Shown: piece by piece, positions 469-62,500 of the stretch
Layout: every line of letters begins with the position of its first letter
How positions within the stretch are numbered: position 1 is the stretch's first letter
Assembly: GCA_051362555.1 (NCBI GenBank)
Contig: CM120644.1
Span: 18,870,534 to 18,934,533, forward strand
DNA from: Lingula anatina
Taxonomy: Eukaryota > Animalia > Brachiopoda
Direction: 5' to 3'
DNA: 64,000 nt
Position numbers and translations under genes: made by a program
Notes under the pieces: generated by a model
Databases searched by the model: none
The model's input: the letters and a program-made list of their open reading frames with translations, nothing else
Told to the model about the DNA's origin: nothing

Positions 469-1945
469 ATGGCGATGTCGATTCGGAATTTGTTGTTTTT
501 TATTGCCTGCCTGGGATTATTCAGCAGTGCCAAGAGCAAACTGTGCTCAGAGCTGTCGCTGAAGAGCGGTTTTGCATGTGACAGGGATGATATGGAATAT
601 CGCAGGTAATAAAGGACAGTTAGCGTGTCTTAAGCCCTCTTTACACTGGACGGTGTCCTTTCTGCGTCCCGTTGTACGGCCCTGATTGAGAGTCAAAAAC
701 AATGATACTTTTGCGTGCCGACAACTGGCCGATCATTGAGCATTCATTTGCAACCAAAGCGGTGCATGTGCCTTCTTTTTTTACGGAAAAAGGACGCAGA
801 AAGGACGCCGTGCAGTGTAAAGCGGGTTTTAACGACGTATTGGCAAATACCAATTGATCTCCAGCAATTTAATAATTGACTTCTGGAATAGATTGACATT
901 TCATGTATCAAAATACATTCATTAATTGATCTTGTCAAGAGAGAACATTTTCAGTGACATTTATTTGCAATACTTATTTGGTGGTCGGCGGTGATTCCCT
1001 GCATTTGCTCCAAATGTAGATAATCACAGCTGTGTTTGGCTGAGGGAAAGTTATACTTGTTACAGGTATAGCATATCATATAGTAATATAAATATTATCA
1101 AAAGTGCGAGAATCACTCGGTAATAAACAGCCAGTCTCCGCATTTCAATTGGACATAGGTCTACCGAGATGGCAAGTTTTGAACCATATTATTTTACCCA
1201 AGAACGGCATCATTTCAGAACCGTTAGAGGGTTAGCGTTAGCATGGGCGCATGGTATAGGAATGTACGCACCATGTGATTTATAAAAAATATTTCAGAAC
1301 ACCTTTGCTATTATGTTTATAACATATCTGAAATAATCTTGTTTTTCAACGGAAAAATATCCGCACCTGTTGATTTATATTAAATGCCAAAACTTTTCTA
1401 TGGAAAACAAAAGACTTATAATGTAAAGTGATAGTTATAATGTAAGGTGATACAAAACAATAAAAATACAATATAATACATTTTATTTCATGTCGGGTAT
1501 AAACATCCCTAAGCTTAGGGTGCATTCCCAGATATTTAGATCGATCCAGAGATTTAGATTTATATCGACCTAACACCCTGGGGGTTCACGCTAAATTGCA
1601 GTCACCCGAGCGCACACCACAGTTAATTACCCCCTTCAGCTTTTAGTAGGCGGGGCAGACGCTTAAGCCGGCTAAGCTGACAGTAATTTAGTGAGACTCC
1701 CCACAGGGATAGATCGATCTAAAATCTATAGGAATGGGGTCTTAGTTTACACTTCATGTGATAAACCTGAATGGATCATTGCAGATATTTCTTATGTGTT
1801 CCGGGGTTGGATATGCCATACGTGTACAACTGCGCTAGCGGCACGTACTGTAACGATGACGTCACATTCCAGTGTGGATTCACGAAACCAAATAGACAAG
1901 AACCGGAAACAACAACTACTACTACTACTACTACGACCTCTGAGA
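469..1945 (+). CDS. Exons 1-2: signal peptide, atypical chitin-binding (CBM14-like) domain, poly-Thr linker
   Basis: [55 protein letters not shown]...[13 protein letters not shown]; phase-2 join AG|A gives Arg. Confidence 0.75.
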
Positions 1946-4900
1946 GTAAGTCCTTTTTATTTTTCCATGGTTCTTCCAGATTAATGAGAAGTATATATGT
2001 CACAAATTCGAAATTGGGTTGTCGAAAACCGCTTCCACTTCTTTGTCAGCAAATAAGTTATCAGTCTCCGTTATTTTTCAATCTGAGAGTCATCTTACTG
2101 TCATATTTTACTCTTTGTATGAAATTCAGTTATTGGACATGTTATTGGATTGTATATACATATACATATACATACGAGTACACATACATATACATTCTGG
2201 TATCTGTTAGTGGTTCCTGTGACGCACATCATGCTGCATTCGGCCAGAAGTTAAAGGGATAATAACTCTTCGTTTCGGCCAAAAAATGAATTTTCCTGGA
2301 GTAAACAATAATTTTCCCATACTTACCAATGGTTAATGAATCCATTTTTACATTCAAAGTTAGTCCCTGGTTTTTTTCTAAAAAGTTTGGTTTTTTGTTA
2401 AAATCTCTTAAGAGATTTTAACAGAGTATATCCATCAGTGGAGGTCACGTGGTCTAAAGACAAGCTCAGATATCAGAAAAAAGCTATAACTGCCATTTTT
2501 GTGGTAAAACAGAATATATTATATTTCTATGAGTTATTCACAATGTTTTTATTGTGAAATATAGATCTCATACGAAGAGTTATTATCCCTTTAAGGATAG
2601 TGTTTTAGTAAGGAGGGTTTTTGGGAAAGCATATATATTCTGTGTTCTCCCCAGGGAGGCGAGAACGCCTATAACCAGTCTGAATCATGTTCTAAAAAGT
2701 GTCCGAAATATTAAATGATTTATTTAAAACGCACTAAGACGTAGCTTTTTAAGAACCATACTTTATTAGCATCAGACTTTTCTTTACATGGAAACCACCA
2801 TGACTTCAGCTACTGCAGGTGCATGTATCACTTCTCGCGTCATTCAGATGGACTCGCGAGCACTTTCTATAGTCTATAGATAAGTGAATAGTATTTTGAA
2901 TTCAAATAAAAGGAGTTGATGGCTTGGAATGCAGGTCCCATACAAAGCCATGGGCGTAAATAATACAACGAGCGAGTGTCACTTACATGTATTATTACAT
3001 GCCAATGAGGTGCAGTTATGTATGACTGAGTAGTCCAATTCTCGACACAACTCGGAAACGAGAGAAGAGATATTTATTTTTGTGATAATATTTCAAAAAA
3101 AGTAGGTGACAAATAATGTAAAAAGTACCAGCAGTGCTGAACTTTAAAAATACACATTAATGTGTAATTACTTTCGTCTTCAATGAAGAGCAGTATAAAA
3201 GAACCAAGCTTTTCTTTTTTTCCTTTTTAATCAATTTCTAGGAATTTTAAAGGCGTCAATATGAATTTCATCAGATTTTTTCTGCTTTGATTTATTTCAA
3301 ATTGATTATCAAATTATCATTATCAAAAGCAAAATCTGTCGCGCCTAAGGTAAAAACTACTATAGCAAGAAAATAATGATGTGTTTGTTTCTTGGTATCT
3401 TTTACTCTACGTGTGTTATATCTTACCGGTGACAGTTGATGCACTTGCTGAGGTAATTCTCGTGATTTTAATAAAAGCCAAATGCAAATAAGGTCTATTC
3501 ATCAGTGTTGCATTGCAATTTGAAATGCCATTCATGTAGTTACGCAAGAACTAAATCAATTGAAAACTTATTAGAATTACAAATTATGGACGAGGTTAAC
3601 TTGACAAGAGTATAAAAGAAAGTACTGTAGAAACTTTTTTGAATTGAACCCATCAATCACGAAGAAAGTTTTATAGATAGGCGCACAGTTTTTCTTAATT
3701 AAATGCATTTTAATTGTCGATTATAAAGTGTCTCTATTTCTGTTTCATTTCAAGGCTGGCCAATATATAGTAAATTGCAGTTTGAAAATTCTGATCGCAG
3801 CGTAAACGCTTCACTCTGTGTGGAATAGGAATCCACGTGAAACTGTCGAAGATATGCGCTTTAGTTTTTCTTCAAGGAATAATAAGGAATAGGTTTCGCG
3901 CTTCATAGTAGAGGATACACGTTTATTTGAATATTGCATTGTTTTTTTTCTCTAAAAGCTGATAGCTATTATATCAGTTAACGTAGAAAACGTTTCTTTT
4001 GTTCATACGACTCTCACCAAACGATGCTGGAGATGTGACTATCATAATACATAATACATAATACACTAGATTATCTGGGGGGGGGGGGGGCAAGGCCAAA
4101 ATGTAAAATAGGGGGTGTATATAGTCCACAGTGCCCTCCCCTGGGTCATCTGTTTCTGTGCATGGTCCTACTTATTCAACATGACTGCAGTAAATTAAAC
4201 TATTTTCTCTCTTCCAGCGCCTATCGACCCGTGTGTGTTGACGATATGTTCCAACGGAGGAACGCCGACAGCCTCTGGATCGTCGTGTAATTGCCAGTGT
4301 CGCCCTGGGTATACCGGCGCCAGGTGTAATCTAGGTAAGGCGTGCGGGGGTGGGGGGGGGGAGCCGTCAGATCTCTTGGCGATCTAGAATTGCACACTGC
4401 ATTTTAACAAAAAAATAAAAGAAGAAGAAGAAAAATAATAGAAAAGAAGAGAGAGAGCGAGGAACTTGTATGAATGACGTCTTTACGGGAGCTTTCTTTC
4501 TTTCTTCTGAGCTTTCTTCGTCGCACTGGTTTCGGAGCCCTTCCGAAGATTATCAGGTTTATTTGATAGTACATGTAATTTAGCATATTTACAATTGTAA
4601 TTTTTTCACTCTCTTCTCGCGTTGAATTATGATCTGCCTAAGCCAATTTATCATCGTCATAGTCTTACAGATATGCGTGATATCGCTTTGTAAAGACAAA
4701 TAACGACATAAAGAAAGACACTTAAGCCAGTAAAATATAATATTGTCTCTTCCATATGTCTCTGTCTTGCTATGTGTATGTAAATGTTTATATGCTATTA
4801 CAGTGTATCCCTCTGGCTTTGTGTCATCATAGGGTGTATTCCCAGAGAGTTAGATCGATCCAGAGATTAAGATTTAGATCGACCTAACTCCCTGGGGGTT

Positions 4901-6143
4901 CACGCTAAATTGCAGTCAGCCGAGCGCGCACCATAGTTAAACACCCCCTTACAGCTTTCAGTAGGCGGGACAGACGGATAGATCGATCTAAAATCTATGG
5001 AAATGGGGTCATAGGCTTTAGGTTGCTGAACACCGTCTGTACCTCACTCTTTGTTTGATATCTTGTTCATTCCAAATTCTTTAAAATACATACGCAGTAC
5101 TTTCCCCCCTTTGAGCTAGCTATAATATACACGGACGTACGGCAAATCGATAAATAAAATTTTAATATATCTAATTTTCATTCAGTATTTAAAAATACAA
5201 TAAAAAATAAATAAGAAATGATGAATCAAGTCATTTGTTTAGAAAAAACTTAGATAACATGCCGTGCATTAGTGCAACGATCTTTCTTCCAGATGTCAAT
5301 GAATGTCTCAGTAACAACGGCGGCTGCCAGCAGATGTGCAGAAACTTCTGGGGCGGCCACGAGTGTCGGTGTCAGGCCGGCTATAGACTGGGGGCAGACG
5401 GGAAGTCTTGTCATGGTACGTGTGGACTTGCCTCTGAATTCACAGGGGATACTGTGAGTGTCGGTGTCACGCCGGTTGTAGACTGACATATTAATAGATT
5501 AATAGATTGTAATTTTGTAAACAATTCTTGATTATAATGATATACCTCGACGGTAGAGAGAAACGTGTCAGAATATCAAGGAAAATTAAATATTTTGGTA
5601 CAATCAACGCTCATGGAGTTTCTATAACAACACGGCAAGAGTCTTCAACAAGAAGGTTGGGGTGCAACTGACATACGTCTAGTTGTGTATTTATCTATCA
5701 AATTTTATTTATAAAATATTATCTTCCCCGCGGCTTTCATACTGCAAACGTGCATGTGTGAACACATTGTAAATATAAAGTAATTCTTTATGCAGATATA
5801 GATGAGTGTCAGGACATGAACAAGTGTGACGTCAACGCTATATGCCAAAACACGCCCGGAAGCTACACGTGCACATGCAACGCAGGGTATGTGGGAGACG
5901 GACACACATGCACAGGTAAACAGGACGCTTGTTATTCAAATATACATATGCATACATATCTGGAATAACGCAAAGGTGTTACGTGTTGGAGATGCATATG
6001 TACAAGCAGGACAAATGTGAAAGCAAATGAGTGGGCTGTTATCTTCACATAAAATGATAAATATGATATTGGTTAATTAGGTATGTAGTCATTTTAAACA
6101 TTTTATTTTGATATTAATGTACCTATGTACTCAAATCAGTGTA

Positions 6144-6177
<34 letters not shown>

Positions 6178-6208
6178 GTTGTTGTTGTTGTTGCTGTTTT
6201 TATCATTC

Positions 6209-6263
<55 letters not shown>

Positions 6264-8618
6264 TTATTGTTATTTAATTTAATTTAATTTTATTTTATTT
6301 TATTTTTTTGCGGCTGTTGCTCTTGTTATCTTTTCATATGATCCTTTTAATAGTTTCATCTGTGTGAAGTCCGCGCTCTCTCAGTATCATGACGTGTACC
6401 TGTATTTCAGTGGCTGACATGTGCGCGGGAGTCACGTGTCAGAATGGCGGCACACCTTACGACAATGGCTTCACCTGTCTGTGCCAGTGTTTGACAGGTT
6501 ACTATGGCGACCGCTGTGAACAAAGTAAGTCAGACTTTCTGGTAAGTCAGACATTTTAATGTGAGAACGAGGCTTTTTTGAAAGACCATACAGATATAGG
6601 GTTTGGGCATTTGCTATATTCTATAGCATAGTTTGCCAAACAGAGTGCGGTTTTTCATATAATATGCCATCATGCCATATGATGTTTCCGTGCAGTACTC
6701 ACAATCTGAATTTAATAAATAATTTAAAAATAAATAGTCAGCCCCACAGTTAAAGTTGATACATATACATCTACATATAGAGAAGAAGGTATAATTCATG
6801 ACCAGGATATATCAAAATACTTTCAATATGTATGACAGTGTTATCTCAAGGATATTTGACGGATATTCTGACACTATATCATTCCGTGGAGTAACACTAA
6901 AAATGGCATTTCATCATTGTTTATTCAAAAAAAATAAACAATGTCATGTTGACTTATTGTTTTGTTGAGCTGAATTTGATTCTTTGATTCTTATCCTAGA
7001 GCCCCCGGTTGGATGTTCACCACCAATAGACGGAGTAAACTCAGACCATGATTACACTGGTAGTGGACCAGTACCTGTAGGCGTTATTATCACCTATACC
7101 TGCCGTGACGGACACTACATACCTGGTGGAGCGTCAACTGACATGATAACGTGTCAGAAAGATGGGACATATGACAAAGCTGTAGCTGATTGCCGTGAGT
7201 GATCATTCTTGTATTAAGCCAAGTCAGAAACACAAAACGTCTAAAATAATCTTCTGTACATTTCACTTGAAGGTCCGTTGGCATTTTGAAGGCAACCCAA
7301 ATTAACAACGGCAAATTTGTTTTGCCTTCATTTTATTTTTTGTTGAGTTGGACACGCTTTATTTGTAGACCCTGGATGTCCACTACCCCTGGACGGAATA
7401 AATGCTGTTATCGATTACAATGGTCCTGCACCAATACCTGTCGGCACTGTGGTCACCTATAGCTGTGTTTTGGGAAACGTCATGGCTGATGGAACGACAA
7501 TTAAGGCAATAGAATGTCTGTCCACCGGAGTTTACGACAGTGGTCCGGCTAATTGCCGTAAGTGCCAATTGTTCAAATACAGTGTAAGTCAACATTACAA
7601 AATATAAAAAGGGAATCTTCGATGAACTACACCTGAAATAGACGACACTCCAGAAAACAAACATTCAGTTGCCGTCAACTGTGTGGTGTTTTAGGTAACC
7701 GCCCGCAAGAAAATGCAGTAGTATCGAAGTAGCAAAGAAGTATTAACGCAGTAGTGGTGTGGAGCATATTTGCAGTAGAAATGCAGTATAGCCTACTGCA
7801 ATTCTACTTCAAAAATTACATAGGGTTGTATAGAGGAGGAGCATTAATGCAGTAGATTAGCAGCATGATAGAAGCATGCTAATTAGCTCTCACCTCGAAG
7901 CAGATTTGAAGCGTGTTTGCAGTATGATTGCAGTAGTTTACTGCGCTGGAGTATCTACTTCGTTTTCGTGCGGGCGAGTTCAAATTATTATATTGAACAA
8001 TAATGACAAATGTGATGATAGGTGCGGGGACTGTAGTCACACGTGTAAGAACAACCTGGGTGGATACAAATGTGAATGTCCGAGTGGATATGAACGCAAG
8101 TGTGACCAGCTCACCTGCAGGGGTACAGTGGCCCTTTTCTTAGATGCCGCGTATCATTACTTCATGGACGACGCTTTTCCTGATACGCCTTCAACATTAC
8201 CTTGTTGATAGTAGATTGTTTTCCTGAAATGAACAGAATGCAATTTATGCATGCAAATGATGTTTTTTTTTAACTTTGGCATTTATTTTCAGAAAAAGCT
8301 GGTTGTGCTGTTAACAATGGCGGCTGCTCCCACACCTGCACGGATACGGACGGCGGCGTCAAATGTTCCTGTTCGGCGGGGTATGTTCTGGGTAGCGACG
8401 GGAAGACTTGTGAAGGTGATTGCTTGGTTTTTTATTGTAGCGATGTATCATTCTTGGCAAAACTGGCACCTAGTCCTTTTTATCTCACATTAAGTGCATA
8501 CCCATAATCATCAACTTTGAAATTTGTCCACAATCTGTGTATATATTCAAAGATAAGTGTAGGAAAGTGAGTTGTAGAAATTGCCAATAAAATATTTGTT
8601 TTTCTCTAGATTCGACTG

Positions 8619-8674
<56 letters not shown>

Positions 8675-9495
8675 AGAAGAAGAAGAAGAAGAAGTGGTAA
8701 TAACATTAGCAGTAGCAGAAGCGGCTGTAGTAAAGTAGTAGTTGGTACACATGTAAAAGAGGAGAGCAACATCCCCCAAAAAATACGGGGTGTTTCTTTA
8801 AAAACTACTACAGTACGAAAGATAACTTTCTCATGACTTCACCGTCTTATATTATGGTTTAGATGATGACGAATGTGCGGTCAGGAACGGCGACTGTAGT
8901 CACACGTGTAAGAACAACCTGGGTGGATACAAATGTGAATGTCCGAGTGGATATGAACTCGAGGATGACCAACTCACCTGCAGGGGTACGGCCACTCAGA
9001 GCACTTTGCATGTTTTGGTAGAAGACCCATATCAGTATTTTAAGGACTAGTGACTTGATTCGATTTTGAAATAATGTCGCTGATTTGGGGTTGTTTTCCT
9101 CAAATAAACATGATGCAATTTACGCATACAAGTGATTTTATTGTAACTTTGGCATCTATTTTCAGTAAAAGATGAATGTGCTGTTAACAATGGCGGCTGC
9201 TCCCACACCTGTACGAATGTTAACGGCGGCGTCAAATGTTCCTGTTCGGCGGGCTATGTTCTGGGCAGCGACGGAAAGACTTGTGAAGGTTATTAATTAA
9301 TTTTCTCAGTGTTAACTGTACTGTAACGATGTAACATTCTTAACAAAAATGGTACCCAGTCCTTTCTGACTTCACATAAAATACACACTCACAATAAGCA
9401 ACTTCAAAATTGGTCTACAACCTGTAAGATCAGATTAATGTTATAAGTTATACAAAATGCCCTTAAAATATTTGATGATCTGTGGGTTCAGCAAT

Positions 9496-9526
<31 letters not shown>

Positions 9527-11216
9527 CGGAAGTAGAAGAAAGCAGCACCCCAGAGAACACCACTTTGAATAGCAATGCAGCATTATGTTCTAATGTTTTG
9601 ATAATTTCATATTAATTTCAAGACGATGACGAATGTGCGGTCAGGAACGGCGACTGTAGTCACACGTGTAAGAACAACCTGGGTGGATACAAATGTGAAT
9701 GTCCGAGTGGATATGAACTCGAGGATGACCAACTGACCTGCAGGGGTAAGACTGATCTCTTTTAAGTTTTTGGCTCCATTTTTAGCTAAGGGCGTATTCT
9801 GAACAAGTTTTTCCGCGGAGTAACAGATCCGCGAATCAAATATGGCCGACTCGCTTTAAAGCATGCCGCCTAATCCCCTCATAGACACTGATTAGATTTG
9901 ACTAAGATCCGCGAATCAAGTTGTGCTTGGAATGATACCTAAAATACTTAAGGCGAAAAAATTGATATTTACAAGTACAAAGAAATTTGTAATGTAGAAC
10001 GCCAAGTGTGTAACGGAGCAGGTTTCATAACTTTGCCCTCATGGCTCCACGCAAAGTGCATAAATACAATGCCAAGATGTTTACACCCATTACCATACTT
10101 TTGTAAGCCAATAATCGACAAGCAAGTAATGCCTGTTTCCAGGAATTGTATCTATTCATGTTGTCGTCTGTCAGTCACATTTCAAAACGGCAGCACTAGT
10201 GCTCTGATGAAGTTCAATTTAACAAAATAAAAATAAATAAATAACAAATACCATGCATGTACTCGACTTGAACTGCCACGAAAGGAAGACACGTGTTACA
10301 TTTTCTTATTAGTCATCACTCCAGACAACGGTGACTGTGCCGTTAACAATGGCGGCTGTTCCCACACCTGTACGAATGTTAACGGCGGTGTCAAATGTTC
10401 CTGTTCGGCGGGCTATGTTCTGGGTAGCGACGGGAAGACTTGCGAAGGTGATTTTTAAAAATTCTTTTCTTTCAGTGGAGTAACAATATAAACATTTCTT
10501 TGTAATACTTCACAAATGGAAGTGTACATATGACAAAACCAAAATCTACTATCCATAATTTGGTCCTTTTGGAAGTTAGATGGGCGTACATTTTGTACTT
10601 CATGCTTAAATAAATATCAAACGGGCTACGTTCAAGGTCAGTCCAATGATATTATGACTGGAGGTGCCTCTCTATTTAACGTCGGTATTTGTTGCTTTGG
10701 AAAAAGTTTTCATATCAAAACAATTAAGTTTTACAACCTCATATTAATTTCAAGACGATGACGAATGCGCGCTCAGGAACGGCGACTGTAGTCACACGTG
10801 TAAGAACAACCTGGGCGGATACAAATGTGAATGTCCGAGTGGATATGAACTCGAGGATGACCAACTCACCTGCAGGGGTACGGCTGTTCATGGTTAAAAT
10901 TACGTTATGTCCAAGGGCTATTTACCATTCACCTTAATAATAAGTTGTGTCTTCCAAGAGAACAAATTTAGGAATCTCTTGTTACAACCGCCTGTGCGCT
11001 GTTTCGTCCCTCTATGCCCAGTGTATGCTGCTCATGAAAATAAGACAGCCTTCGAGTGAATACGTAGCGAAATGAAAATAAAGTTTAGAATCACAAAATG
11101 TTACCCTTGTTTTGCGCTCAATTTCAGAACAGCAGTACTAGTTCAGTTAAACAAATGCAATGAAATGTAATCGGTCCATCAGGCGGGTGCATTTAGAAAT
11201 TTGATACTGATCCTAA

Positions 11217-11263
<47 letters not shown>

Positions 11264-14155
11264 CGCACGCGCGCCTTTCAAATCACCAGGTACCGTAAGT
11301 GGTACTTTATATGATTTCAGAAATCAAGACAGAACCAGAACCATTCAACTGTACGGGAAAGCGAAACCTCTGGTACCCGGACGCCGAGAGCTGCATTGTT
11401 TTCTACCAATGCACGAACGGCCAACTGGAAGAAATGAAATGCGGCCTGGGCTACTTCTTCAACGCCTACACTGTCAGCTGTAATAGCGCTACGTTCGAGA
11501 TTAATGCCGGGAAATGCCTCGCTGATGGTAGGCAGTGTTCCATTCCATAATATACGATGTTCATGGTCATGACACACAGGTCTGTAGCCGGGGGAGGGGG
11601 GGGGTTAGGAGGTTCGAATGGACCGCTTTTTTGTGCCATGTTCCCGGCCAATCCCAGCCACACATCTTGATATTGTCAATACGTTATTGTCATAGTAACA
11701 GTGTGGTAAACAAGTACTGAATCCATATTCGTCAGTATGGTCATTGCATGGTTAGACCAAAGGCCAATACACATGTAAAAATGCAGTCCCCTCGCTTAAA
11801 ATATATCACTTACAGAATGGCCCTAGGAGGTGGGATGCTCTTGGAAACTGTAAATGATAATCCCAAGGACGACATTCGGGGAGGGGGGGGGGGGCGTATG
11901 CCACTCCCCAGGCCCCAGTTTCACAAAAAACTTAAGTCAGGTTCCCTGGCTAAGAACTTAATTACCAAGGTTACAGGGTCACATGGGTACATCTTACCCT
12001 ATCAGGAGCAGTGTTACAGTCCTCTCATGGAAATCCTAGTCAACTAAGCCAGGGAACAGACTCAAGTTTTTTTTGTGAAACTGGAGCCAGGAAGGTTTGG
12101 TCTTTTCAGGAATTAACAAATCCAGAAAGACCAGTCAGAGAGTGTTAAGCCGACTGACCTTGTTTACTGGGGATATCGACCGAAGCCCATTCATTTCATT
12201 TCATTTCATTTCATTTCATTTTATTTCATTTTATTTTATTTTATTTTATTTTATTTCCAGGAAGCCGGGTATCAGAGGACTCAGACAAAGAGAAGCCGTT
12301 CGTGTGCCCAGGTCCTGGTTACTACCCTCACCCCACTGAATGCTCCCAGTATTACAGCTGTATCCTGGACAGCTACGGGAAGTTCGTCAAGTCTCTGATG
12401 ACCTGCCCGGACCAATTTGGCTTTGATAGTAATCCCTCCAGTTTTGGTTGTGTCTTCATGCTGCACCTGAGCCACTGTGATAGCAACGGAAAAGTGATTG
12501 ATCCGACGGGTCAGTTAAAGTCCGCGATTTTTAGCGTTCATTTACAAAACCTTCCCGTTAAATGTCAAATATGGGGTAACTGACAAAGAACCGGTGATGT
12601 AATGGATTAAGTTGTCATGTTTTATTTGTGTCAAATTTAGACACAACGCACGTACGTTTTCATTCCAAAATATACATTAATCGTAGACTTTTTAAATTTG
12701 TACCTTGTACGAATTGGATTTTTATTCTCATTATTTTTAGTAAAAGACGTACGTTGTATTACATATTCATAAACGAAGACTCCTTTCATTCAGTCATCCA
12801 AACAATGAAAAATTATAATTGAATAATCGATTTACTTCAAAAGTTTCAGACGTTACTATGGAGAGATATTTTTACTGTTCATACTTATTATTGTCTTAAT
12901 GCATAGCTAAAGATTGTATTCTACAGAGAGAAACGCCACTACATCCGGGCCCCTCACCACCACCACGCCTGCGCCCCGTGAGCCCTGCACGGCCGGCGAG
13001 ACCGGAGAGAAGAAAGTCAACCTCGAAGACTGCCGCCAGTTCTACGTGTGCACCAACCTGGAGTGGGTCCTCTACGACTGTGCCCCGGGGTTGGTCTACA
13101 GCACCGCCAGGGGGATCTGTGACTGGGACGTCAATGTCGACACGTGCGATAACGGTAACGTGGTAACCGGACCCCCCACGGCGGTCGACTGCGCTGATGG
13201 GCGAGAGAGCGGGTACTATCCCGATCCTTCCACTTGCCAAAAGTTTGTTGTGTGCGAGGACGGGAAGTTCCTTGGGGAGTTCAGCTGTGCCGCGGGGACG
13301 TTCTTTGATGAGGTCGGCAAAGGCTGTCAGCTTATTGAAGATATGGTGGAGAAAGGGGAATGTAGACAAAATGGTGAGATTCAGTTTTTCAAGACTGTAG
13401 AGGGTTATTTTAAAATGGATTTCTTTTTCTGTAAAAGGGCACCTTGTTATCTCTTTAACTGACCCTTGAAAAATGACAGAATCTGGATCAACTTTTGATT
13501 TAGAGCAAATATTCATCTCTAACAAAAACGGTCGTTCTTTCAAACGACCGTTTCTTCAACCCCACCTCTGTACGGGTTGGTTTTGACCAAACCACTAAGA
13601 CATGTCTTTTTTCTTTGCAATATATGTATGTATTGTGCCTATGTATTGCAATGTTATTATTTATTTTTAAATGTGCGTGTACAAGTGAGAGAACAAGTGA
13701 GCGAGTGAATGTGAAAGTACTATTTCAGTTAAGTGTTTTTGTGTTTTCTTTTAATTCTAATTTATTTCCTAAGTATAATCAAACATTAAAAAATATTAAA
13801 ACAAAAATGTCCTGAACAAGCAGGCGATCCCTAACATAGTAAAACATCCATATGTTATTCTCCTAGGCGACAGAATTCCGATAGAAGACCGATTCTTCAC
13901 CTGCCCGAAGGACTCCGAGCAGACGATGTTTCCTCACCCTCTGAACTGCACCAAGTTCTTCCTGTGCCTGCCCACCTCGTACTCGGTGGTCAACTGTAAC
14001 GAGGGCTATGCCTGGAGCACTGACGTCTGTCTGCCTATAGACCAGGTGACCACCTGTGGGCCGAACCTGGAGTATGTGAAAGGTAACTACGTGTGTGCGT
14101 AAAAGTGAGAGAGGGTGCTTGTGAGTGTGTGCGTGTTTATGTGCGTGCATATGTG

Positions 14156-14190
<35 letters not shown>

Positions 14191-17100
14191 GCTCTTGTGC
14201 ACGCATTCTAACCGAGGACACACACCCGCCCGAAACCCACTAACCGAGGACACACCTCCAACCGAGGACGTCCTCGGTTGACATAAGCACTGGAATGCAT
14301 AAAGGGGCCCATTTCAAGTTAGGTGGTGAAATTTGACGCTATTCTGAGCCAGTCCTCGGTTATGCTGTATAGCGCGGGCCAAATTCCCGCCACGAGTGTA
14401 TCAGAAATACTGTCCAATTTTTTGTCTGAAATCGGGCTATACACACGCGTCCTCGGTTGTGCTGTAAAGGGCGGACCAAATTCCGCGTCCTCGGTTGTGC
14501 TGTAAAGGGCAGACTAAACTGAAACTAATGTTATATCTCAGATGTCTATATATTCAGTAAGTTCATATTTTTAAACTAAAGGTCTTTTTTATCAAATTAA
14601 GCTCTCCTAGGCCGTTACGTAACTACATAACTATCATCGCACTGTACATATTACGGCACGCTTCTTTATTAGTACAACTGACTTGGAGTGGTTTAAATAA
14701 AGAAGAACTGTCTGAATTTGTGGCTCACTCGGTAGATCTTAGGACCGACAATCTTTTGAGGGTGCAAGAATTACTCTGAAGTATCAAATAAACGTACCGG
14801 TACGTTAATTAATTTTCCAAATTTCTTCCCGCCGGTACGCTCCATTTTCACCCAGTACGCTTATTAATTTTTCAAAAATCTTCCACCCGGTATGTTTATT
14901 AAATACATATTGTACCGGTGGGAACTTACACAAGTACAAGTCACGCTTTTTATTTTCTTAAATTGAAGTATAATGAGAAGAAAATTGAGATCTCAACTCA
15001 TTACCGACTCTTCTACCAACAGCACTGGAAAGTAGGTCAAGCGGAAGTCGCTCTCTGAACACAACAGTACATGCGTCACCTGATTTCAGTTCCTATAAAT
15101 AGACGTGCTTTCCCTTCAACAGTGACAACTACTCATGTACATCGATCGAATGATGCAATGTCGCAAGGTGATAGGATCATATTTATAGCTAAGGAGTCAT
15201 TTCAAGTGCAGCAAAGAAGTTGTGCCTGTTTTCAAACGTCAATTATTTCATGCCGATTTATGATTTAAACGATGTTAAATCACATTTCTATGTAAGATAA
15301 ACCCTTAGGAGTTTACAGGTATGCAAAACGAACCTTATATCTGAGAATAAATTTACTATGAATAACGTCTCCGTATGGCTCTCGGAGGCGGCTTAGGTGC
15401 GACATATCTGGGTCTTCGGCCCCTGACGATTATGAAATTTAACTCATGGCAAATATATATATATATATATTTTTTTTTTTAAATAAATTAGATATCCCGT
15501 TTTTAAGATAAATTATAATACTGAGTGAATTTTACCTGGTGAATTTTTTTTTTTACAATGATCAATAGCTAGCTTTTTTCTTTCTCTTCTTCTTCTTTAC
15601 TTTTATTTATTTATTTCATTTTTTTTTTTTTTTGGGGGGGGGGGGGGGGGGGGAGTGGTGCAAAGGTTTTTTCCACCCAGTACTTTTATTCCATCCAGTA
15701 ATTTTATTAAATTTCGAGATTTTTTCCACCCAGTAGGGGCCTACTTTTATTCCATCAGTACTTTTATTAAATTTTGAGATTTTTTCCACCCAGTACTTTT
15801 ATTCCATCAGTTCTTTTATTCGATACTTCAGAGTAAATGAAAAGGGTAAATGGATCGTCCGTAAACCCCCTTTACACTGGGGCGGCGTCCTTTGTGCGAC
15901 CAAGAAACTGGCATCACTGTGGTCGTAGAAAGGAGGTACAAGCATTGCTTTGGTTGAAAAAAATGAATATTTGGTGATTGGCCAGTTGTCAGAAAGTTAA
16001 GTATTATAATTTTGTACTCTCAAATGGATCCGTACTACAGGACGCAGAAAGGACGCCGTCCAGTGTAAAGGGCCCCTTAGCTAACTATGAATTAATCTAC
16101 CCCTGATAGTTTGAAGAAGGCTATGACATTATGAAACATTTATTATTACATAATGGCTCTGCGAACTACAGTCACTTCTTTTCACCTGTAGATCTGACCT
16201 GTTTGTTATACACCTGGCTGCTAGAATAAATACTAAATCTAACAACTGAAGTGAAATTATATTTTGAATGGGCCCCTGTCGGTCCATGTCGCTAACACAG
16301 AGCACACATATTCATAAACACGGCATTTGCAAGAACCGCTTTGTGAAATAAAAAAAGAAAAAAAAGACGCCCCGACAATTACGCGTCCTGATATATAGGC
16401 CTACAGTTCGGATATGCACACGGCAAAAACGATTAAGGGACCGTTCCCAGATCCTATCGTACTAACTATGGATCGATCTCTCCCAGAAGGAATGCTATAT
16501 AAATTGCAATCAACGTAATCAGTGTGATCTGGCCAATTTTACAAAGTTACTGTTTTTCCCTTTTCTCAGCATGATATTATATGCGATGCAACATTTTAAA
16601 GAGAACCGATAGGTCTATTTTCATGAAACTCACAGAACTGATGAATATTAGTTAAACACAGGTCAAGTTTGAAAATCTTCATAATGGGCTGCTTTTTTTT
16701 TTCAGAAAATTTGCTGTTGTTTTTGCTTTTTTCAGCATACATGCAACACTGTAAACACAGTTCAAGGAGAAGCAATAGGTCTATTGTCATGAAACTCACA
16801 GAACTGATGATTATTAGTAAAAGGGTTGTCAAGATCAAAAATCGGCATATCCGGGCCATTTTTTGTCAAAAGTTATGCTGTTTTTTTTCTGCCATTTTCA
16901 GCATATAAGTAACACTGTAAGCACATTTCAGGGAGAACCAATCAGCCTGTTGTCATTAAACTCACAGGAGTGATCAATGTTACCAATATACAAATCAAGT
17001 TTGAAAATAGGATTGATTGGTTGAGTTTTGTGGAAGTTGTGCTTTGTTTTGATATATATAAGTGGTTTTCCTCAGATTTGATTGTCAGGCATGTTGACAG

Positions 17101-21983: not shown

Positions 21984-22040
<57 letters not shown>

Positions 22041-23139: not shown

Positions 23140-23190
<51 letters not shown>

Positions 23191-34329: not shown

Positions 34330-34377
<48 letters not shown>

Positions 34378-34508: not shown

Positions 34509-34554
<46 letters not shown>

Positions 34555-35146
34555 ATACGTTAGTTTGAAGACAGAAAACTACCAAGCACAGTGCAAATGA
34601 GTGAGTCGTCCAGTAGTATTTATCATAAATGAAGTTTTATCGTCTGTAACTGGTCTACTGTGACAGGAATAGTATTCCCAGGAACATTGGCCCGGGTCCC
34701 TATGATTAGTACACGTTAGAGTTTACTGAGAGTATCGAGGTCAGTACATTGGACAAATGTTACTTGTACTAAGTCACGGGATAAGAGCTATACTTGTCAC
34801 AGCGACCGAGGTCTATGCCATGTATGCGAGGGAGACTCAACGTCCCCAAGAAGACGAAATCGTAAGTTTAAACACTTTGCTAAGTTTTGTCTAATTGCCA
34901 ACAACCATCAAAGACAAGGTATGTATTTCCCCTGCAACTGCGCTCGTGTCCAGTTAGATACAAAATTATTTTAACGACAAATAATATTACATAAACAAAA
35001 GCAAAACATACCCTGATAACAAATAGATATGTGACTGTAAATGGCGAATACTATGTTATCTACTAATCAGTACCTTGAGAACTGGCAAGGTTAAACATCA
35101 GAACCAAACACAGGCAAACCACAGCAATGTGTCTCATGGCGGCCAT
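34143..35146 (-). CDS. Secreted single-ANATO (anaphylatoxin-like) peptide 1, 74 aa
   Basis: Exons 35146-35074 and 34294-34143: MAAMRHIAVVCLCLVLMFNLASS|QDIGGMCCVMGMRNRGQNCQGRARTLSEPCRTGFLNCCKVGNNQLTHADAQ*. TATATAA at 35211-35205. A 3'-UTR intron leads to an exon starting at 33265. Confidence 0.8.
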
Positions 35147-56021: not shown

Positions 56022-56949
56022 TTGATACCCGATTACTCACCCACCCCCCTCCTCACAAATAGGCCTCGTCCCGCATCTCCCCCCCCCCCCCCCCCTTCCA
56101 ACTGCGGTGTTGTCGTCAAACTTAGCTCAAAGCCTGGGTCCGGTTGGGCAACATATCAAACATATCACAAAAAATGTTAAAAACTGAGTAACCAATGTTT
56201 CTTTTATTCTAAATATCAATAAACATATTTATTTCTGTGGAATGCAGTAATTTACATAATCACAGGTAGTCCTATCTCTGCCATGGCCACTCATAGATGT
56301 GCGTGATGACAATGATAATAGACACAGGTATTTGTTTTACGCGTTCAGTGCATTTTGAATACGGAACATGTATAACATACTTCCTTTAAACAAAAGATGT
56401 CCTAAGAGACATTTTTTAAAAACTGTTGCCGACTTTTCCAGCAGTTTTTTTTTTTCGTCTTCAAATAAGGGCAAAATGAATTAATAACAATGCAGTTCTT
56501 TAAAAAAATGCAGAAATGAGCTCCGACGAAGCAGAAGCGCGAAAGTCCGCTGGAAGGCAGGTGCAAGGTAAAAACACAATCACGGTTGAGACACCGAGGC
56601 GTCCTTGGCCTTTCGATACTTTTTGATAAATAGTGTGCAGCATATCATTTTAAAGCATTTGAAATGTACTTTTTTGTGATGTGGAAGACAGATGTTTTCT
56701 CCACCACATGTATGGAATAGAGGCATAAGAACCTGAGTCAATGAATTGCCGATAAAAATGGCGATTTTCAGACACACCTTCACGACAAAATCTCACAGAA
56801 TTTTTGTAAATATTACAATGACAGCAAACATTATACATCAGCTGAAAGATAATTTTCTTCCGAACAAAACCCCATCTATTAAACTTGTTGTTCTGGTATA
56901 ATTTTAATTCATTCACTGACTAAACATGTAAACGATCTGAGCACCAAAT

Positions 56950-57430
56950 GTGACACATTCAAATATGTACATGTAGATGACACCACAATTCTAAGCTACG
57001 AGAATACCAAACTGCAGGACAATCTCCCTGATGCAACAACAGAACTCACTCTCTGGTCCCATGCTAATAAACTAACAATAAATACTACCAAGACCAAAGA
57101 GATCATATTTGATTTCTCCAAAAAAGGACACAAAACTACACCCTTACTAGTAGTTATAATCAAAGGATTGAGAGAGTGGGGTCTGCTGTCTTCTTATGGG
57201 TTAGGAACAGTAGTGATTTGAGCTGGGAAGGTCACATCTGTGATATGTGTAAAAAAAGCAAGTAAAAGGCTAAATAATCTTAAGCTTCTGAAAAGAGCGG
57301 GTATTCTAACCAATGAACTTGTAAGCTTTTATACATCCGTAATCAGATCTACATTAAAATATGCATGTCAGGTGTGGCACCCAGGTATTACACAACAACA
57401 AATTAATAAAATTGAATCCATCCAGATACT
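56950..57430 (+). mobile_element. 3' fragment of a second (CR1/L2-like) LINE reverse transcriptase
   Basis: KYVHVDDTT...INTTKTKEIIFDF...KKASKRLNNLKLLKRAG...YTSVIRSTLKYACQVWHPG...IESIQ, abutting the opposite-strand LINE. Confidence 0.75.
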
Positions 57431-59600
57431 AAGATATTACTAGTGCTTCTTTTAATACCCAGCATTCTTTTCAAAAAATTAGTATGTACCTTTCTTATAT
57501 CCTTTACCTTATTGAATCCCCATATTCCTGATGCATAATTTAAAATACTACCAACGTACGTATCAAATACTGCTTTTTTACCCTGTTCTGCTATATGTTT
57601 TTGGGTTTGACAAAACTTACCATTAAAATTAAAAAGTAATCCGAGATAACTAAATTGATTCACCCTTTCTAAGACAATACCGTTATATTTCCATTTCTCT
57701 TCAGCCCTTAACTTACCCCCATTTCTAAAGACCATTGTTTTTGTTTTTGCTGTATTAACCGTTAAATTCCAATTTTGTGAGTATAATTTCAAGGTATCTA
57801 AAAGTTTTTGTAGTCCTTGAGGGGTTTCCGATAAAAGTACCGTATCATCTGCATACATCAGTAAAAAAAGATTTATGTCCCGTATTTCAATACTTTCACA
57901 ATTTTCCGATAAGCAAAAAGTTTCAAAACCATTAACATACAAAGAATAAAGTAGCGGGGACATTACAAAACATGTACCTCTCCTTGTAATAGACCGGTGT
58001 GTATTTGGAAGTGTTCAGATAGCTGACCTTTAAACTTAACACAAGCCTTTACATTGCTGTAATGACTTTTTATAATTTGGAGCAATTTACCTTGGACACC
58101 GAGTTTATTTAATTTCTTCCATAAACTTGGCCTATCGATGGAATCGAAAGCGGATTTATAATCCACAAACGCACAATATAGTCGCTTCTTACTCCTTAAA
58201 GTACGATTTATCACGTACTGTAGCACAAAGATAGCATCTACGGTACTATGCCCCGCTTTAAATCCAAATTGTGCGTCGGTTGTAACACTGTTATCCTTAT
58301 CCCAAGATTCTAACCTTTTATTAAGTATGGAAGTAAACAGCTTGCCTAAATAACTAGTTATCGTAATTCCCCTATAATTACAAGGATCGTCAACATTTCC
58401 CTTTTTATGTAAAGGTATAATACAACCCTGACACCAATTCTCTGGAAAGTGCCCCGAATCTAGTACAGAATTAAACAAAGTTCTTAACGCCGGTAGTAAA
58501 ACATTTTTACAGTGTATAAAAATTTCATTTATCATACAGTCCTCGGCACAGCTCTTGTTAGCTTTTAATTTTTCAATTGCGCCAATAATCTCACCGTCAC
58601 TCACGGGACTATCTAATTCATTGAACATTGTCTCGGTGTATAAGCCTACATTGGGGTCTACTTCGCGTATGTCACAATCTATTCCACCAACACAGTATCT
58701 CTTAACATGCTACATGTACTACATGTAAATTCATCTTCCCGATTGTTTAGTTCTACGGGGTCACTTATCTGAGCATCCATTGTATTACACAAACTGTCTA
58801 TTCGATTCGCTAATGCATCATTTATCGACTTTGCATTATTTTCTATCCATCTAACCGAAACACTAGTTCTAAGTTCCATGCCTGTCTTACGTTCATCATA
58901 ATCTAAAAGCGCATTTTGTTTTAAAGACCCACAAAGCAGGACAAACGTGATTGGTGCATGATCTATTTGGTGATGATATATTTGCTATAAGACTCTTCTA
59001 AAGCTTGAAATAAATCAACATCATTCGTTTTATAAAATATACTATTTTCTGGCGGAAAGTAACATACTGCTATTAAGATTGGTTTCGAAGGTATAAATGT
59101 ACTGCGTATGGAATCTATTCTTATCCATATAATACTATCGTAAATATCACTTACTATATGTACATATTTTCTAATTTTAGTTTTACAGAGGATGGCTATT
59201 CCACCACCACGTAGATTCTTTCTTCGATACAAATGGCAATCATATCCCGCCAAAACAATTGGCATATCATTGCTCAGCCAACATTCGGTTAGAAAAATCA
59301 TATCATGCCCATTTATAATTTCTAAAAAATCAATATCAAGTATCTTGCAATTAAACCCTTTTCCAACATTCCAGGAAATGAAACTTAGCTCCGAAACTTC
59401 ACCTTTTTTTTACCGAAGCTGAGCATTTATCTATGGTGGGCGAGGTTTCTACCTCCTCGCGTGCGTTATCTGTGTTAAACTGATTGTAGTCCAAAACTTG
59501 GCCGAAGGGCTGCCTGTCCTAGCGATTATAGACTAGTGGTCTCTTGTTTGGACTATTTACCAAGTCAATAGGTTTTCACAGATTTCCTTAACAAATAAAG
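57430..59600 (-). mobile_element. Decayed non-LTR retrotransposon (APE endonuclease + reverse transcriptase), frameshifted and internally deleted
   Basis: APE motifs SWNV and IFLTECWL; RT motifs NYRGITI, QFGF, AFVDYKSAFDSI, GLLQGE, LMYADD, FSYLG, spread over broken ORFs. Confidence 0.9.
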
Positions 59601-59976: not shown

Positions 59977-61439
59977 ATGAAAGTAAGATATACTTACTGT
60001 ATTTGGACTCTATTTCCTATCCATATTTCCCTTTTTTTTTTTTTTTTTTTTTTGATAGCATGCATTACATGAAAATGACTTTTCTTTTTTTGGTTGTAAT
60101 TGAAAATATTTTACTGACTCTAACCCCTATTTTCCTTTCAAAGACCTACATTTTATTTTGGGTTGTTCTTTTTGTACAAAAGTTTCACTGTACAGGTATC
60201 TGCCTAGCCATCCTATGTAAGCATGTAGCAGCTACCTCATGGCAGGAATAAACATGGCTGCCTGCTAGCATATGGACTGAAAATGTCCCTACTTTGTTTG
60301 AGTACATATCGAGCCCAACCCTCAGACAAGCTGATTTTCACATATATTTCACCTTATATTCATATCTTTTCAACCGTGAATAATTAGCTTGTTTGAGGCA
60401 GGGGCTCATATAAAAAATGAACATCTTTTATCCTCAAGTCACTGTAAGATTCTTCTTTCAATCAGCACTACATTTAAGAATAAAGCAATCGAAATATTGA
60501 TCACAAGCAGTGATTGGCCACTTATTGCCTTTCTTTTTTACACTGGCACCTTCTGTACCCAATTACAAAATTTCACAGTTGTCACCTTACTATTACTAAA
60601 GAAATGTAGCATTAGAATTCAGACCCCCCCCCCTAAAACACACATTTTCATGAATATTTGACAAGGTCATTTTGCCATTAATTTTTTATATTTCAAATTC
60701 AATAAAAAATATTTTTAGGTGGATTATAAAAGTGTAAGACCCCAACTTTAATTTGGCATCAATTTTTTCCATTCATTCACAATTTATTTTTCACGTACAA
60801 AAGTGGGCACTTTTACCCCCTTATTCGCACTCATCTTTTGAATAATTTTTGCGACATTAATTCATGACATATAAGTCCGTGAAGATATGATCAAAAAGTA
60901 TTGCTCTCCCTCAAACAAGGCGTATTTCAAATAACTCTGTATATTAATCTCGAACAGTTTAACAAATATTTTGTCTTTTAAATCAAGAAGTGGTTTATGT
61001 TATGTTACTTGACGTTGAATGAGTGTTTGTCACTTTAAGTAGGCGGGAAATACGACTTTAAGTATTGAAATAAGATCAAATAAGTTTATTTAGTTGTATT
61101 TGATAAAATATATATATATATATAAACGTTGAATATCAATCATGAATAAATTTACAAACACCTTGACCACTGAATCTTAAAATCGGACAATTTTCACATT
61201 TCGCTTTTACAGGGATTGTACCTCTTTGCCGTACTAGTTGTCGCAGTAGCCATAGCGTCACCCATGCGACGAAACACGCACAGATGTGGAATTGGTTACT
61301 ATAAGAATGGTGGATTTTGTGTGCCAAGAAATCCTAGAGACAATCTTGCCACGGAGACATACTGCCCATGGTATATGATCTATGATGAAAAACCTGGCAG
61401 GTATGTTTACTATCTCTCGATCGATCTCATTCACAATCC

Positions 61440-61478
<39 letters not shown>

Positions 61479-61656
61479 GGTCTGTCTGTACATACATACA
61501 TACATACATACATCAGTGGCGGATTTAGGGTATGTTAGGGGGATCCTGACCCCCCCCCCTCGACTTTTGAAAAGAAAATCACACCAATGGTCCCAGCTGA
61601 ATTATGGTTCGGCATCGCATTTGCGAAAACCCACTCAAATAATCCTGTGTCCACTC

Positions 61657-61710
<54 letters not shown>

Positions 61711-62500
61711 TCTCTGTTGTACTACTTTCAATATCTTTGCAATATGACTTATAAGGCTAATTGCTTTAAATTCAATGTTGGACTTTTGGTTGCTTCGGAA
61801 TGGTTATAAATATTGAGTTCTTCATTTCTGTTGGACTTATATAGGTACTTCATTGGCATTGGCACTACACTGTCACTCCACGGGGACTCTCGCTGAGTGC
61901 AATCAGGGATTCTTGCTGAATGCCATCAGATCAACAGATTAACACTCCTCTCGTTTTCAACGTACTCGAGTACTTACCCGATTCTCTGTATTCTGCTCAA
62001 CGTCAGGGGAAGTGTTAATCTGTTAATCTGATTGTATTCAGCAAGAATCCCCGTGGAGTGAGTTCGAACTAGCAAGCTCATTGTGAACACACCCTTTGTC
62101 TTATTTTCAAACATAGAATTTGAAAATCACAACATAGTGAATTCTAGAAATGATATTCAAACAATATTTTATTCTCTGTAGTTCTATGCTCATCATCAAT
62201 TAAAAACCTAGGTCTTGGATCCAACATAATCCCCTTGATCACAACCTAAAATATATAAGCATTGCCCTCAATAATTGTTGACACGTGTGTTTGAATTTAT
62301 ACAGGCAACCCTATAGGCTACCGAGGGCACGTTGTCTCTATAATTACACGCCTGATGGACGCAGCAGTTGCCATTACGTTATATACAAGGTCCTAGTAGA
62401 CAACGAGAGGGTCCGAGTAGACAACGAGTTGGTCCGAGGAGACAATGAGTGGGTGAGCATAGAAGCGGGTTGCGTGGCCGCGCCAAGGATTCCCTGGTAG
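59977..62500 (+). CDS. Divergent IL-17-like cystine-knot cytokine, ~129 aa
   Basis: Exons 59977-59982 (ATGAAA|GTAAGA, inferred), 61213-61400, 62305-62500. Signal peptide MKGLYLFAVLVVAVAIA. IL-17 motifs: YCPWYMIYDEKPGRQPYRLPRARC...CHYVIYKVLV...EWVSIEAGCVA. AU-rich 3' UTR with ATTTA motifs. Confidence 0.7.

What the first reader, a model, noticed from the sequence alone, without database searches (positions are those of the whole stretch)
469..62500. Seven-gene cluster of secretory-pathway defence-type proteins: putative innate-immune/mucosal effector island
Seen: every host protein gene I can build in 64 kb is secreted or type II membrane and carries a defence-associated fold. They are a chitin-binding/CCP/ANATO/TIL/WAP mosaic, a BRICHOS precursor, two ANATO peptides, two cationic helical peptides and an IL-17-like cytokine. 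No housekeeping protein gene interrupts them, and several have TATA boxes. Known: CBM14, TIL and WAP occur in invertebrate defence and matrix proteins; C3a is antimicrobial; polychaete arenicin-type AMPs come from BRICHOS precursors; IL-17 induces epithelial AMPs. Inference: unrelated families have been gathered into one co-regulated epithelial/gland locus. A secreted matrix, adhesive or toxin gland role is an alternative.
Basis: partly seen in the sequence, partly recalled or inferred. Interest (0 to 1): 0.85.

Follow-up and report, generated by a model that had tools for sequence, protein, structure and literature searches.

The report
Brachiopod cluster of C3a-like, cationic peptides
A lamp-shell (Lingula) genome has five neighbouring expressed genes for predicted secreted or membrane proteins, two of them free-standing miniatures of the complement fragment C3a and two strongly positive peptides that likely kill microbes, but their RNA levels do not move as one unit, so this is likely a patch of duplicated defence-peptide genes rather than a single co-regulated immune island.

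Summary
The seven genes are largely real. The window is Lingula: gene A matches XP_013379695 ('fibrillin-1') and gene B matches the BRICHOS protein XP_013385292. RNA reads splice B-F on the minus strand; G is only predicted.

The 'unrelated, co-regulated' reading is weak. C, D and the five ANATO repeats of A are one local family, and E/F are a tandem pair, leaving 4-5 lineages. In 4 RNA runs, B/D peak in one run, F peaks in two others, and A's 3' end is near zero. B's terminal peptide has net charge 0, unlike arenicin-type peptides. IL-17 identity of G rests on motifs only.

What stands out: two free-standing genes for C3a-like ANATO peptides with their own signal peptides, and two 46-residue amphipathic peptides (net +11, +9). 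These are likely host-defence peptides; activity is untested. The scan earlier noted a separate BRICHOS-peptide array in this genome (e1-10589056), not this locus.

The parts
469..26273 (+). Gene A: predicted secreted mosaic, 26 coding exons (1534 aa with all, 1122 aa without exons 6-14): EGF x12, CBM14 x5 (perhaps a sixth at the N-terminus), Sushi x2, ANATO x5, TIL, WAP-like x2
   Evidence: Pfam; RefSeq P0003 'fibrillin-1 [Lingula anatina]'; exons 3-25 all phase 1-1 with AG/GT ends; 3' exons barely expressed in 4 runs
6411..10877 (+). Nine in-frame exons of A (EGF, Sushi x2, EGF x6) absent from the RefSeq model, plus one decayed EGF exon near 8000-8122 whose acceptor is lost; part is a recent copy of 22807-23503
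   Evidence: 640/727 aligned columns identical including intron; inclusion not tested by RNA
21209..21913 (+). Single exon of A with five tandem ANATO modules, acidic (net -11 over the 241-aa frame)
   Evidence: Pfam ANATO 57 bits, 5 stretches; charge
27038..29633 (-). Gene B: type II membrane BRICHOS precursor, 477 aa; RRKR site, then 272 aa with an internal 28-aa net +10 segment and a terminal 8-Cys, net-neutral 57-aa segment
   Evidence: P0001; RNA joints; charges
34143..35146 (-). Gene C: 74-aa precursor, predicted signal peptide plus one ANATO module (mature about 50 aa, net +3); intron in the 3' UTR
   Evidence: RNA joints 34294/35074 and 33265/34142; Pfam ANATO 19.6 bits; best PDB sequence hit C3a, E 0.009
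37720..38559 (-). Gene D: 84-aa precursor, predicted signal peptide plus one ANATO module (net +4)
   Evidence: RNA joint 37910/38496; Pfam ANATO 16.2 bits; alignment
41067..42098 (-). Gene E: 73-aa precursor; predicted 46-aa mature cationic amphipathic helix, net +11
   Evidence: RNA joint 41242/42053 in 4 of 4 runs
44032..45107 (-). Gene F: 73-aa paralogue of E; predicted 46-aa mature peptide, net +9; long 3' UTR
   Evidence: RNA joint 44207/45062
59977..62500 (+). Gene G (predicted only): about 129-aa secreted protein with a CPW motif and four domain cysteines; divergent IL-17/cystine-knot candidate; exon 1 (59977-59982) is a guess
   Evidence: open frame across a GT-AG intron; exon-1 candidate with a TATA 112 nt upstream; no database support
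56883..59409 (.). Broken LINE fragments (reverse transcriptase and endonuclease), both strands; not part of the cluster
   Evidence: Pfam RVT_1 and Exo_endo_phos

Best explanation
This Lingula region holds lineage-specific genes for predicted secreted proteins that likely arose by tandem duplication and exon shuffling, and its expressed core (B-F) likely makes host-defence peptides, in at least two expression patterns rather than as one unit. E and F would be cut after a short pro-piece to give 46-residue cationic amphipathic helices that likely permeabilise microbial membranes. C and D encode one C3a-type disulfide module behind their own predicted signal peptide, so they would act without complement C3 cleavage, likely as mild antimicrobial or chemotactic peptides. 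B would be cut at basic sites to free an internal +10 peptide and a BRICHOS-chaperoned disulfide hairpin. A carries five copies of the same ANATO module as C/D and is likely a chitin-binding matrix protein expressed elsewhere. G is an unverified neighbour. Shown: gene structures, splicing of B-F, domains, charges, paralogy, uneven expression. Inferred: secretion, cleavage, all activities, origin of the ANATO module.
For: RNA joints and minus-strand reads for B-F. E/F: net +11/+9, mean hydrophobic moment 0.55/0.57, 0 of 1000 shuffles reach it. ANATO profile of C, D and the five A repeats: best PDB hits are human C3a, E 1.4e-6 to 5e-6, then C3 relatives, C5a and C4; C alone hits C3a first, E 0.009. 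C against A repeat 1: 55% over 33 aa, E 2e-10; identical CC-x10-C-x10-C-x6-CC spacing in 7 of 7 modules. Junction reads per 1000 M letters in X1/X4/X7/X5: B 0/1.6/25.9/1.8; C 17.6/48.4/105.5/112.5; D 0/0/22.3/1.8; E 3.4/9.5/7.2/10.5; F 0/69/6.6/179. No relative of B's last exon outside Lingula apart from one P/G-rich unrelated match; only the Lingula protein for A's ANATO exon among proteins of 423-2000 aa. C3a is directly antimicrobial (PMC8913944, passages).
Against: No activity was measured. E/F have no sequence relative among Pfam families or solved peptides, so 'antimicrobial' rests on physics alone; Lys/Ala-rich helices can also be structural or adhesive. C and D are only weakly cationic (+3, +4) and no more amphipathic than shuffles (258 and 156 of 1000). 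B's +10 segment is not significantly amphipathic either (210 of 1000). All 10 rank correlations among B-F are positive, which fits partial co-regulation. Only 4 of 9 listed runs were laid, tissues unknown, and X7's reads diverge more from the window, which can bias counts. Of 13 coding variants inspected in C, E, F, 7 are synonymous (best-supported rows only), so no sign of strong diversifying selection.
Confidence: 0.5

Rival explanations
1. One reading: all seven genes form one co-regulated epithelial immune island, with the IL-17-like G inducing or accompanying the effectors.
For: No other host protein domain found between them (224 of 236 ORFs scanned). All five of B-F are detected in 2 of 4 runs, and all rank correlations are positive. 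IL-17 is tied to mucosal immunity in mussels and invertebrate IL-17s carry CPW (PMC8353272, passages and title).
Against: Proportions differ strongly between runs; A is nearly silent where C is abundant. The RefSeq records of A and B sit on contigs of different length, 210,368 and 316,258 bases, so their adjacency is not reproduced there (a scaffold break is possible). With 4-5 independent lineages and an assumed 15-25% secreted fraction, about 2-76 such runs are expected per genome (crude). Of 21 pairs of upstream regions only E/F and D/A slightly exceed 60 shuffles; 1 kB-like site in 7 regions against about 0.3 expected. G lies about 15 kb from F beyond LINE debris and is unverified.
Confidence: 0.18
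2. The genes make a structural secretion (chitin-associated matrix, burrow-lining mucus or pedicle adhesive): A cross-links chitin through CBM14, ANATO modules oligomerise as in fibulins, and the Lys-rich peptides act as cationic cement.
For: A has the ANATO-then-EGF order of fibulins, where ANATO modules mediate dimer formation (PMC11220139, passages); fibulin-2 ANATO appears in the fold search of C, Z 2.5, rmsd 2.4, 38 aligned. CBM14, EGF, Sushi and TIL are common in the Lingula shell proteome, and chitin synthases are high in gut and mantle (PMC4595640 passages and Suppl. Tables 25-27).
Against: ANATO, WAP and BRICHOS are not in that shell-protein domain list (part 9 of 24 read, whole file word-searched). 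By sequence the Lingula module is nearer C3a; fibulin-2 was not among 38 PDB hits. A is not co-expressed with C-F in the 4 runs.
Confidence: 0.2
3. C, D and G are signalling peptides (chemotactic ligands, hormones or water-borne cues) and the neighbourhood is incidental.
For: C3a/C5a are receptor ligands (PMC8913944, passages); C and D are weakly charged; D and B are nearly confined to 1 of 4 runs; G has cystine-knot-like motifs (recalled pattern).
Against: C lacks the N-terminal helix and the long basic C-terminal tail of C3a. C's abundance (up to about 58-fold depth in 1.7 G letters) fits a bulk effector better than a hormone (inference). It does not explain E/F.
Confidence: 0.12

Closest known systems
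Complement anaphylatoxins C3a/C5a (PDB 4hw5, 4i6o, 9rbo; Pfam ANATO PF01821)
   Same: Six-cysteine CC-C-C-CC core; best sequence hit of the C/D/A profile; top, though weak, fold hit is C5a, Z 3.5, rmsd 2.5, 43 aligned.
   Different: C and D are separate small genes with their own predicted signal peptide, not fragments of C3; both loops are 2 residues shorter; C lacks helix 1 and the basic C-terminal tail; function untested.
Fibulin-1/-2 (tandem ANATO modules followed by calcium-binding EGF; PMC11220139, passages)
   Same: Gene A has tandem ANATO modules followed by EGF repeats in a predicted extracellular protein.
   Different: A has five modules in one exon, CBM14 upstream, and ends in TIL and two WAP-like domains, not a fibulin C-terminal domain; RefSeq's 'fibrillin-1' label reflects only the EGF repeats (inference).
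Polychaete BRICHOS-AMP precursors (arenicin, nicomicin, HfBRI; PMC6265681, PMC10745061, passages) and OAF (PMC9714404, passages)
   Same: N-terminal membrane anchor, BRICHOS domain, furin-type site, C-terminal cysteine-rich segment; 8 cysteines as in the OAF mature part.
   Different: B has 272 aa after the furin site against 18-91 aa in HfBRI; its terminal segment is net neutral; the cationic part is an internal 28-aa segment between G/P-rich spacers.
Linear cationic alpha-helical AMPs (cecropin/melittin-type precursors; comparison recalled, no call)
   Same: Signal peptide, short pro-piece ending in X-Glu-Ala, Gly-started Lys-rich amphipathic helix without cysteine.
   Different: No sequence match in Pfam or PDB; 46 aa; activity unknown.
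Invertebrate IL-17 (PF06083; PMC8353272, passages)
   Same: Size, predicted signal peptide, CPW motif.
   Different: Four domain cysteines rather than the usual 6-8; by a recalled pattern it keeps knot cysteines 1, 2, 4, 5 and lacks the 3/6 pair; no profile or fold hit on single exons.

Membership tests
ANATO domain (PF01821) | Six cysteines in CC-C-C-CC order | tested here: met
   Invariant in 7 of 7 modules (C, D, five in A)
ANATO domain (PF01821) | Pfam gathering score 21.4 | tested here: inconclusive
   A exon 57 bits (met); C 19.6 and D 16.2 bits (below); joint profile hits C3a at E 1.4e-6
C3a anaphylatoxin | Released by cleavage from complement C3; 74-78 aa, four helices | tested here: not met
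   C and D are spliced stand-alone genes of 74 and 84 codons including the signal; the model of C has three helices; definition
C3a anaphylatoxin | Antimicrobial or receptor activity | not testable with these tools
   needs peptide assays
BRICHOS family | N-terminal membrane/signal segment, BRICHOS domain, furin-type site | tested here: met
   Pfam 32 bits against 25 on P0001; hydrophobic stretch at residue 25 and RRKR site; features from PMC9714404
BRICHOS family | C-terminal nested-disulfide hairpin | tested here: inconclusive
   8 cysteines in the last 57 aa; not modelled; no PDB sequence hit below E 1.4
Polychaete BRICHOS-AMPs | Cationic 18-91-aa mature peptide directly after the dibasic site at the C-terminus | tested here: not met
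   272 aa follow RRKR; terminal 57 aa net 0; first 30 aa net +1; definition
Linear cationic amphipathic AMPs | Net positive charge and amphipathic helix | tested here: met
   E +11, F +9; 0 of 1000 shuffles reach the moment
Linear cationic amphipathic AMPs | Microbial killing | not testable with these tools
   needs MIC assays
Invertebrate IL-17 | CPW motif | tested here: met
   G exon 2; motif from PMC8353272
Invertebrate IL-17 | 6-8 cysteines in the domain | tested here: not met
   4 from CPW onward, 2 more N-terminal; the same paper notes two mussel isoforms with only 4
Invertebrate IL-17 | Pfam IL17 match or cystine-knot fold | tested here: inconclusive
   only single exons were scanned; exon-3 model pLDDT 47.6, fold search uninformative
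Fibulin | ANATO + cbEGF array + fibulin C-terminal domain | tested here: not met
   A ends in TIL and WAP-like exons; no fibulin C-terminal family in Pfam
Co-regulated effector cluster | Correlated expression of all members | tested here: not met
   4 runs: B/D against E/F patterns, A near zero; G not tested; small n, tissues unknown
Co-regulated effector cluster | Induction by microbes; conserved linkage | not testable with these tools
   no genome held; RefSeq A and B on contigs of different length

The most novel reading that the evidence does not exclude
Lingula has lifted the anaphylatoxin module out of complement C3 and turned it into dedicated secreted peptide genes (C, D): constitutive, convertase-independent C3a mimics, also exon-shuffled five-fold into a chitin-binding protein, and clustered with a new family of 46-residue helical antimicrobial peptides and a multi-peptide BRICHOS precursor as a brachiopod host-defence peptide locus.
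Probability: 0.25. Interest if true: 0.72.

Novelty: new variant of a known kind. Interest (0 to 1): 0.45.

Why it matters
Brachiopod antimicrobial peptides are barely described: in the papers I could open I saw only a mention of big defensins in Rhynchonelliformea (PMC7203481, passage). This locus gives four short, expressed peptides that can be synthesised and assayed directly. Free-standing ANATO peptide genes, if active, would show that the C3a fold can serve as an independent effector without the complement cascade, and the shared module in A shows how it was shuffled into a matrix protein. I found no report of stand-alone ANATO peptides in searches, but the main Lingula immunity survey (Gerdol et al. 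2018, PMID 29278680) is not held and may list these genes. The 'immune island' framing itself is the weaker part.

Tried and rejected
No RNA holder was listed by the run index; the runs laid were raw-read runs of the same species label. No reads were laid on G, on most of A, or on 45.3-64 kb, so G's expression, the inclusion of A exons 6-14 and any unnoticed transcript there stay open. No whole genome is held: no paralogue count, synteny or genome-wide control. G exon 3: homologue search among proteins of 127-2000 aa blank, Atlas blank, PDB blank; G exon 2 PDB no real hit; exon-3 model low confidence and fold search best Z 3.4 on unrelated folds. Atlas blank for C and for A's ANATO region; these blanks show neither novelty nor absence. 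The fold search of C is weak (best Z 3.5) and is used only alongside the sequence hits. P0002 is a repetitive prokaryote-type surface protein, rejected as a compositional match. Literature: 0 papers for Lingula + BRICHOS + antimicrobial peptide; 0 for the stand-alone anaphylatoxin-domain search; PMC8353272 supplement has no Lingula hits. Earlier-findings look-ups near this place, by F's sequence and by ANATO words gave nothing relevant. Shared promoter elements were looked for and not found beyond chance. I did not run a complex prediction, as I make no binding claim.
Full report
Source. The window is animal DNA of 31-45% GC per 2 kb. No genome is held. Earlier notes of the scan called this genome a brachiopod; I checked this: B's last exon is 94% identical to XP_013385292 of Lingula anatina and A's ANATO exon is 98% identical to XP_013379695 'fibrillin-1' of L. 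anatina.

Gene A (469-26273, +). I built 26 coding exons; exons 3-25 all have AG/GT ends and phase 1-1, the signature of exon shuffling, and the full chain is open for 1534 aa. Leaving out exons 6-14 gives 1122 aa, 1104 of 1122 identical to the RefSeq protein, so A is one gene. Pfam on single exons gave EGF, Sushi (32.7 and 16.2 bits), CBM14 (five stretches in four exons), ANATO (five stretches, 57 bits), TIL, and WAP just under cut-off. The two Sushi exons lie in the block that RefSeq skips; part of that block copies 22807-23503 (640 of 727 columns). Whether it is a cassette or a haplotype insertion was not tested. CBM14, EGF, Sushi and TIL all occur in the Lingula shell proteome (PMC4595640, Suppl. 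Table 27, part 9 of 24 read), so these folds are not specific to defence.

Genes B-F (27.0-45.1 kb, all minus strand). I laid 4 of the 9 listed RNA runs on 25350-45300. In the three stranded runs first mates lie on +, which fits minus-strand RNA. Among the 15 of 56 joints shown are three exact coding introns of B (the fourth appears with 5 differing letters in X7), the coding introns of C, D, E, F and C's 3' UTR intron. These four small genes are therefore real, spliced and expressed. D's first exon was found from the reads (38496-38559).

B is a BRICHOS protein (32 bits, cut-off 25) with a membrane anchor and an RRKR site, as the family definition requires (PMC9714404, passages). It is not built like polychaete BRICHOS-AMPs, whose mature parts are 18-91 aa and enriched in positive residues (PMC10745061, passages): 272 aa follow the site, the terminal 8-cysteine segment has net charge 0, and the only strongly basic part is an internal 28-aa segment, net +10, whose amphipathicity is reached by 210 of 1000 shuffles. 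Its last exon has no relative outside Lingula in two searches, apart from one compositional match.

C and D each encode a hydrophobic leader and one ANATO module. With A's five repeats they align without gaps across the cysteines, 10 columns invariant; C is 55% identical to repeat 1 of A over 33 residues. A profile of the seven hits human C3a first (E 1.4e-6), then C3 relatives, C5a and C4; fibulin-2 is not among the 38 hits. C alone also hits C3a first, E 0.009. The model of C (pLDDT 73) finds C5a at rank 1 and C5, C3, C4, fibulin-2 and C3a lower, all at Z 3.5 or less, which is weak. C3a is 74-78 aa, cut from C3, and directly antimicrobial (PMC8913944, passages). C and D differ in being their own genes, shorter, weakly basic (+3, +4) and not amphipathic beyond shuffles. 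A's repeats are acidic and may instead oligomerise, as fibulin-2's modules do (PMC11220139, passages; inference).

E and F are 73-aa paralogues, 50% identical in exon 2. After a leader and a short pro-piece ending in Glu-Ala they give 46-aa peptides of net +11 and +9 whose helical moment exceeds all 1000 shuffles. This is the best case for antimicrobial peptides in the window, but there is no Pfam or PDB relative, and the cecropin/melittin-type comparison is recalled.

Gene G (59977-62500, +) is predicted only. Exons 2-3 join in frame over a GT-AG intron; a 6-nt first exon with a TATA 112 nt upstream is the best of five candidates. It has the CPW motif of invertebrate IL-17 but four domain cysteines rather than 6-8 (PMC8353272, passages). 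Single-exon searches gave nothing. IL-17-like is a reasonable lead, not a result.

Is the cluster more than chance? No other host domain was found in 224 of 236 remaining ORFs of 55 aa or more; the 4 hits are LINE pieces. But the seven genes reduce to four or five lineages (A/C/D, B, E/F, G). With an assumed secreted fraction of 15-25% and 34,105 genes, a crude count expects about 2-24 such runs for five lineages and 10-76 for four, against 0.1-2 for seven independent genes. The RefSeq records of A and B lie on contigs of 210,368 and 316,258 bases, although their stop codons are under 0.8 kb apart here; this may be a scaffold break, but it does not support conserved linkage.

Is it co-regulated? 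Junction reads per 1000 million letters in X1/X4/X7/X5 are B 0/1.6/25.9/1.8, C 17.6/48.4/105.5/112.5, D 0/0/22.3/1.8, E 3.4/9.5/7.2/10.5, F 0/69/6.6/179. Proportions differ (chi-square 338, 12 df). B tracks D (rank 0.95) and E tracks F (1.0), while B-F and D-F correlate at 0.09 and -0.03 on log values. A's last exons have depth 0.21/0.03/0.25/0. Against my reading, all ten rank correlations are positive and X1 is lowest or tied lowest for all five genes, so a shared tissue component is possible. The limits are four runs, three studies, mixed library types, unknown tissues and more divergent reads in X7. Upstream regions share nothing beyond marginal E/F and D/A scores, and one kB-like site in seven regions is within chance.

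Verdict. The observation mostly holds; the island interpretation is overstated. Most likely (0.5) this is a duplication- and shuffling-prone patch whose core B-F makes host-defence peptides under at least two expression programmes, with A a chitin-associated matrix protein and G an unverified neighbour. The unusual element is the pair of free-standing C3a-like peptide genes, which I did not find described in searches (listings and named passages only); the main Lingula immunity paper could not be read. New variant of a known kind; interest 0.45.

Noticed in passing
window 6411-10877 and 22807-23503: Nine in-frame exons of gene A absent from the RefSeq model, partly a recent duplicate of the downstream EGF pair, with one decayed exon near 8000-8122: exon copy-number variation or an alternative cassette.
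   Followed up: partly
window 53-64 kb: Three tRNA-Gly(GCC) copies on the minus strand; the second and third have similar flanks, suggesting a local duplication or a tRNA-derived repeat.
   Followed up: no
window 1517-1741, 4831-4976, 32950-33147, 39228-39436, 54324-54740: A dispersed repeat family of about 200-250 nt in both orientations, heavily represented in poly(A) RNA from other loci (depth over 100 with loose ends); one copy lies in C's 3' UTR region.
   Followed up: no
window 16530-19650: Complex satellite of 156-166-nt units with an approximately 875-nt higher-order period inside A's 7-kb intron.
   Followed up: no
window 47581-48817: Foldback-like element: 183-195-nt tandem units arranged as long inverted arms.
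   Followed up: no
window 34143-35146 and 37720-38559: C, and probably D, place an intron just after the stop codon, giving a 3' UTR exon; run X7 carries a different C allele with changed residues and a different 3' UTR joint.
   Followed up: partly
window 27038-27888: B's post-furin region has five D-[VA]-[GS]-[VSA]-[LF] motifs in G/P-rich spacers between predicted peptides, suggesting a multi-peptide precursor.
   Followed up: partly
window 56883-59409: Two broken LINE fragments on opposite strands.
   Followed up: partly
window 3374-3452: A short hydrophobic ATG-started frame in A's second intron, interrupted by a stop; possibly a dead signal-peptide exon.
   Followed up: no
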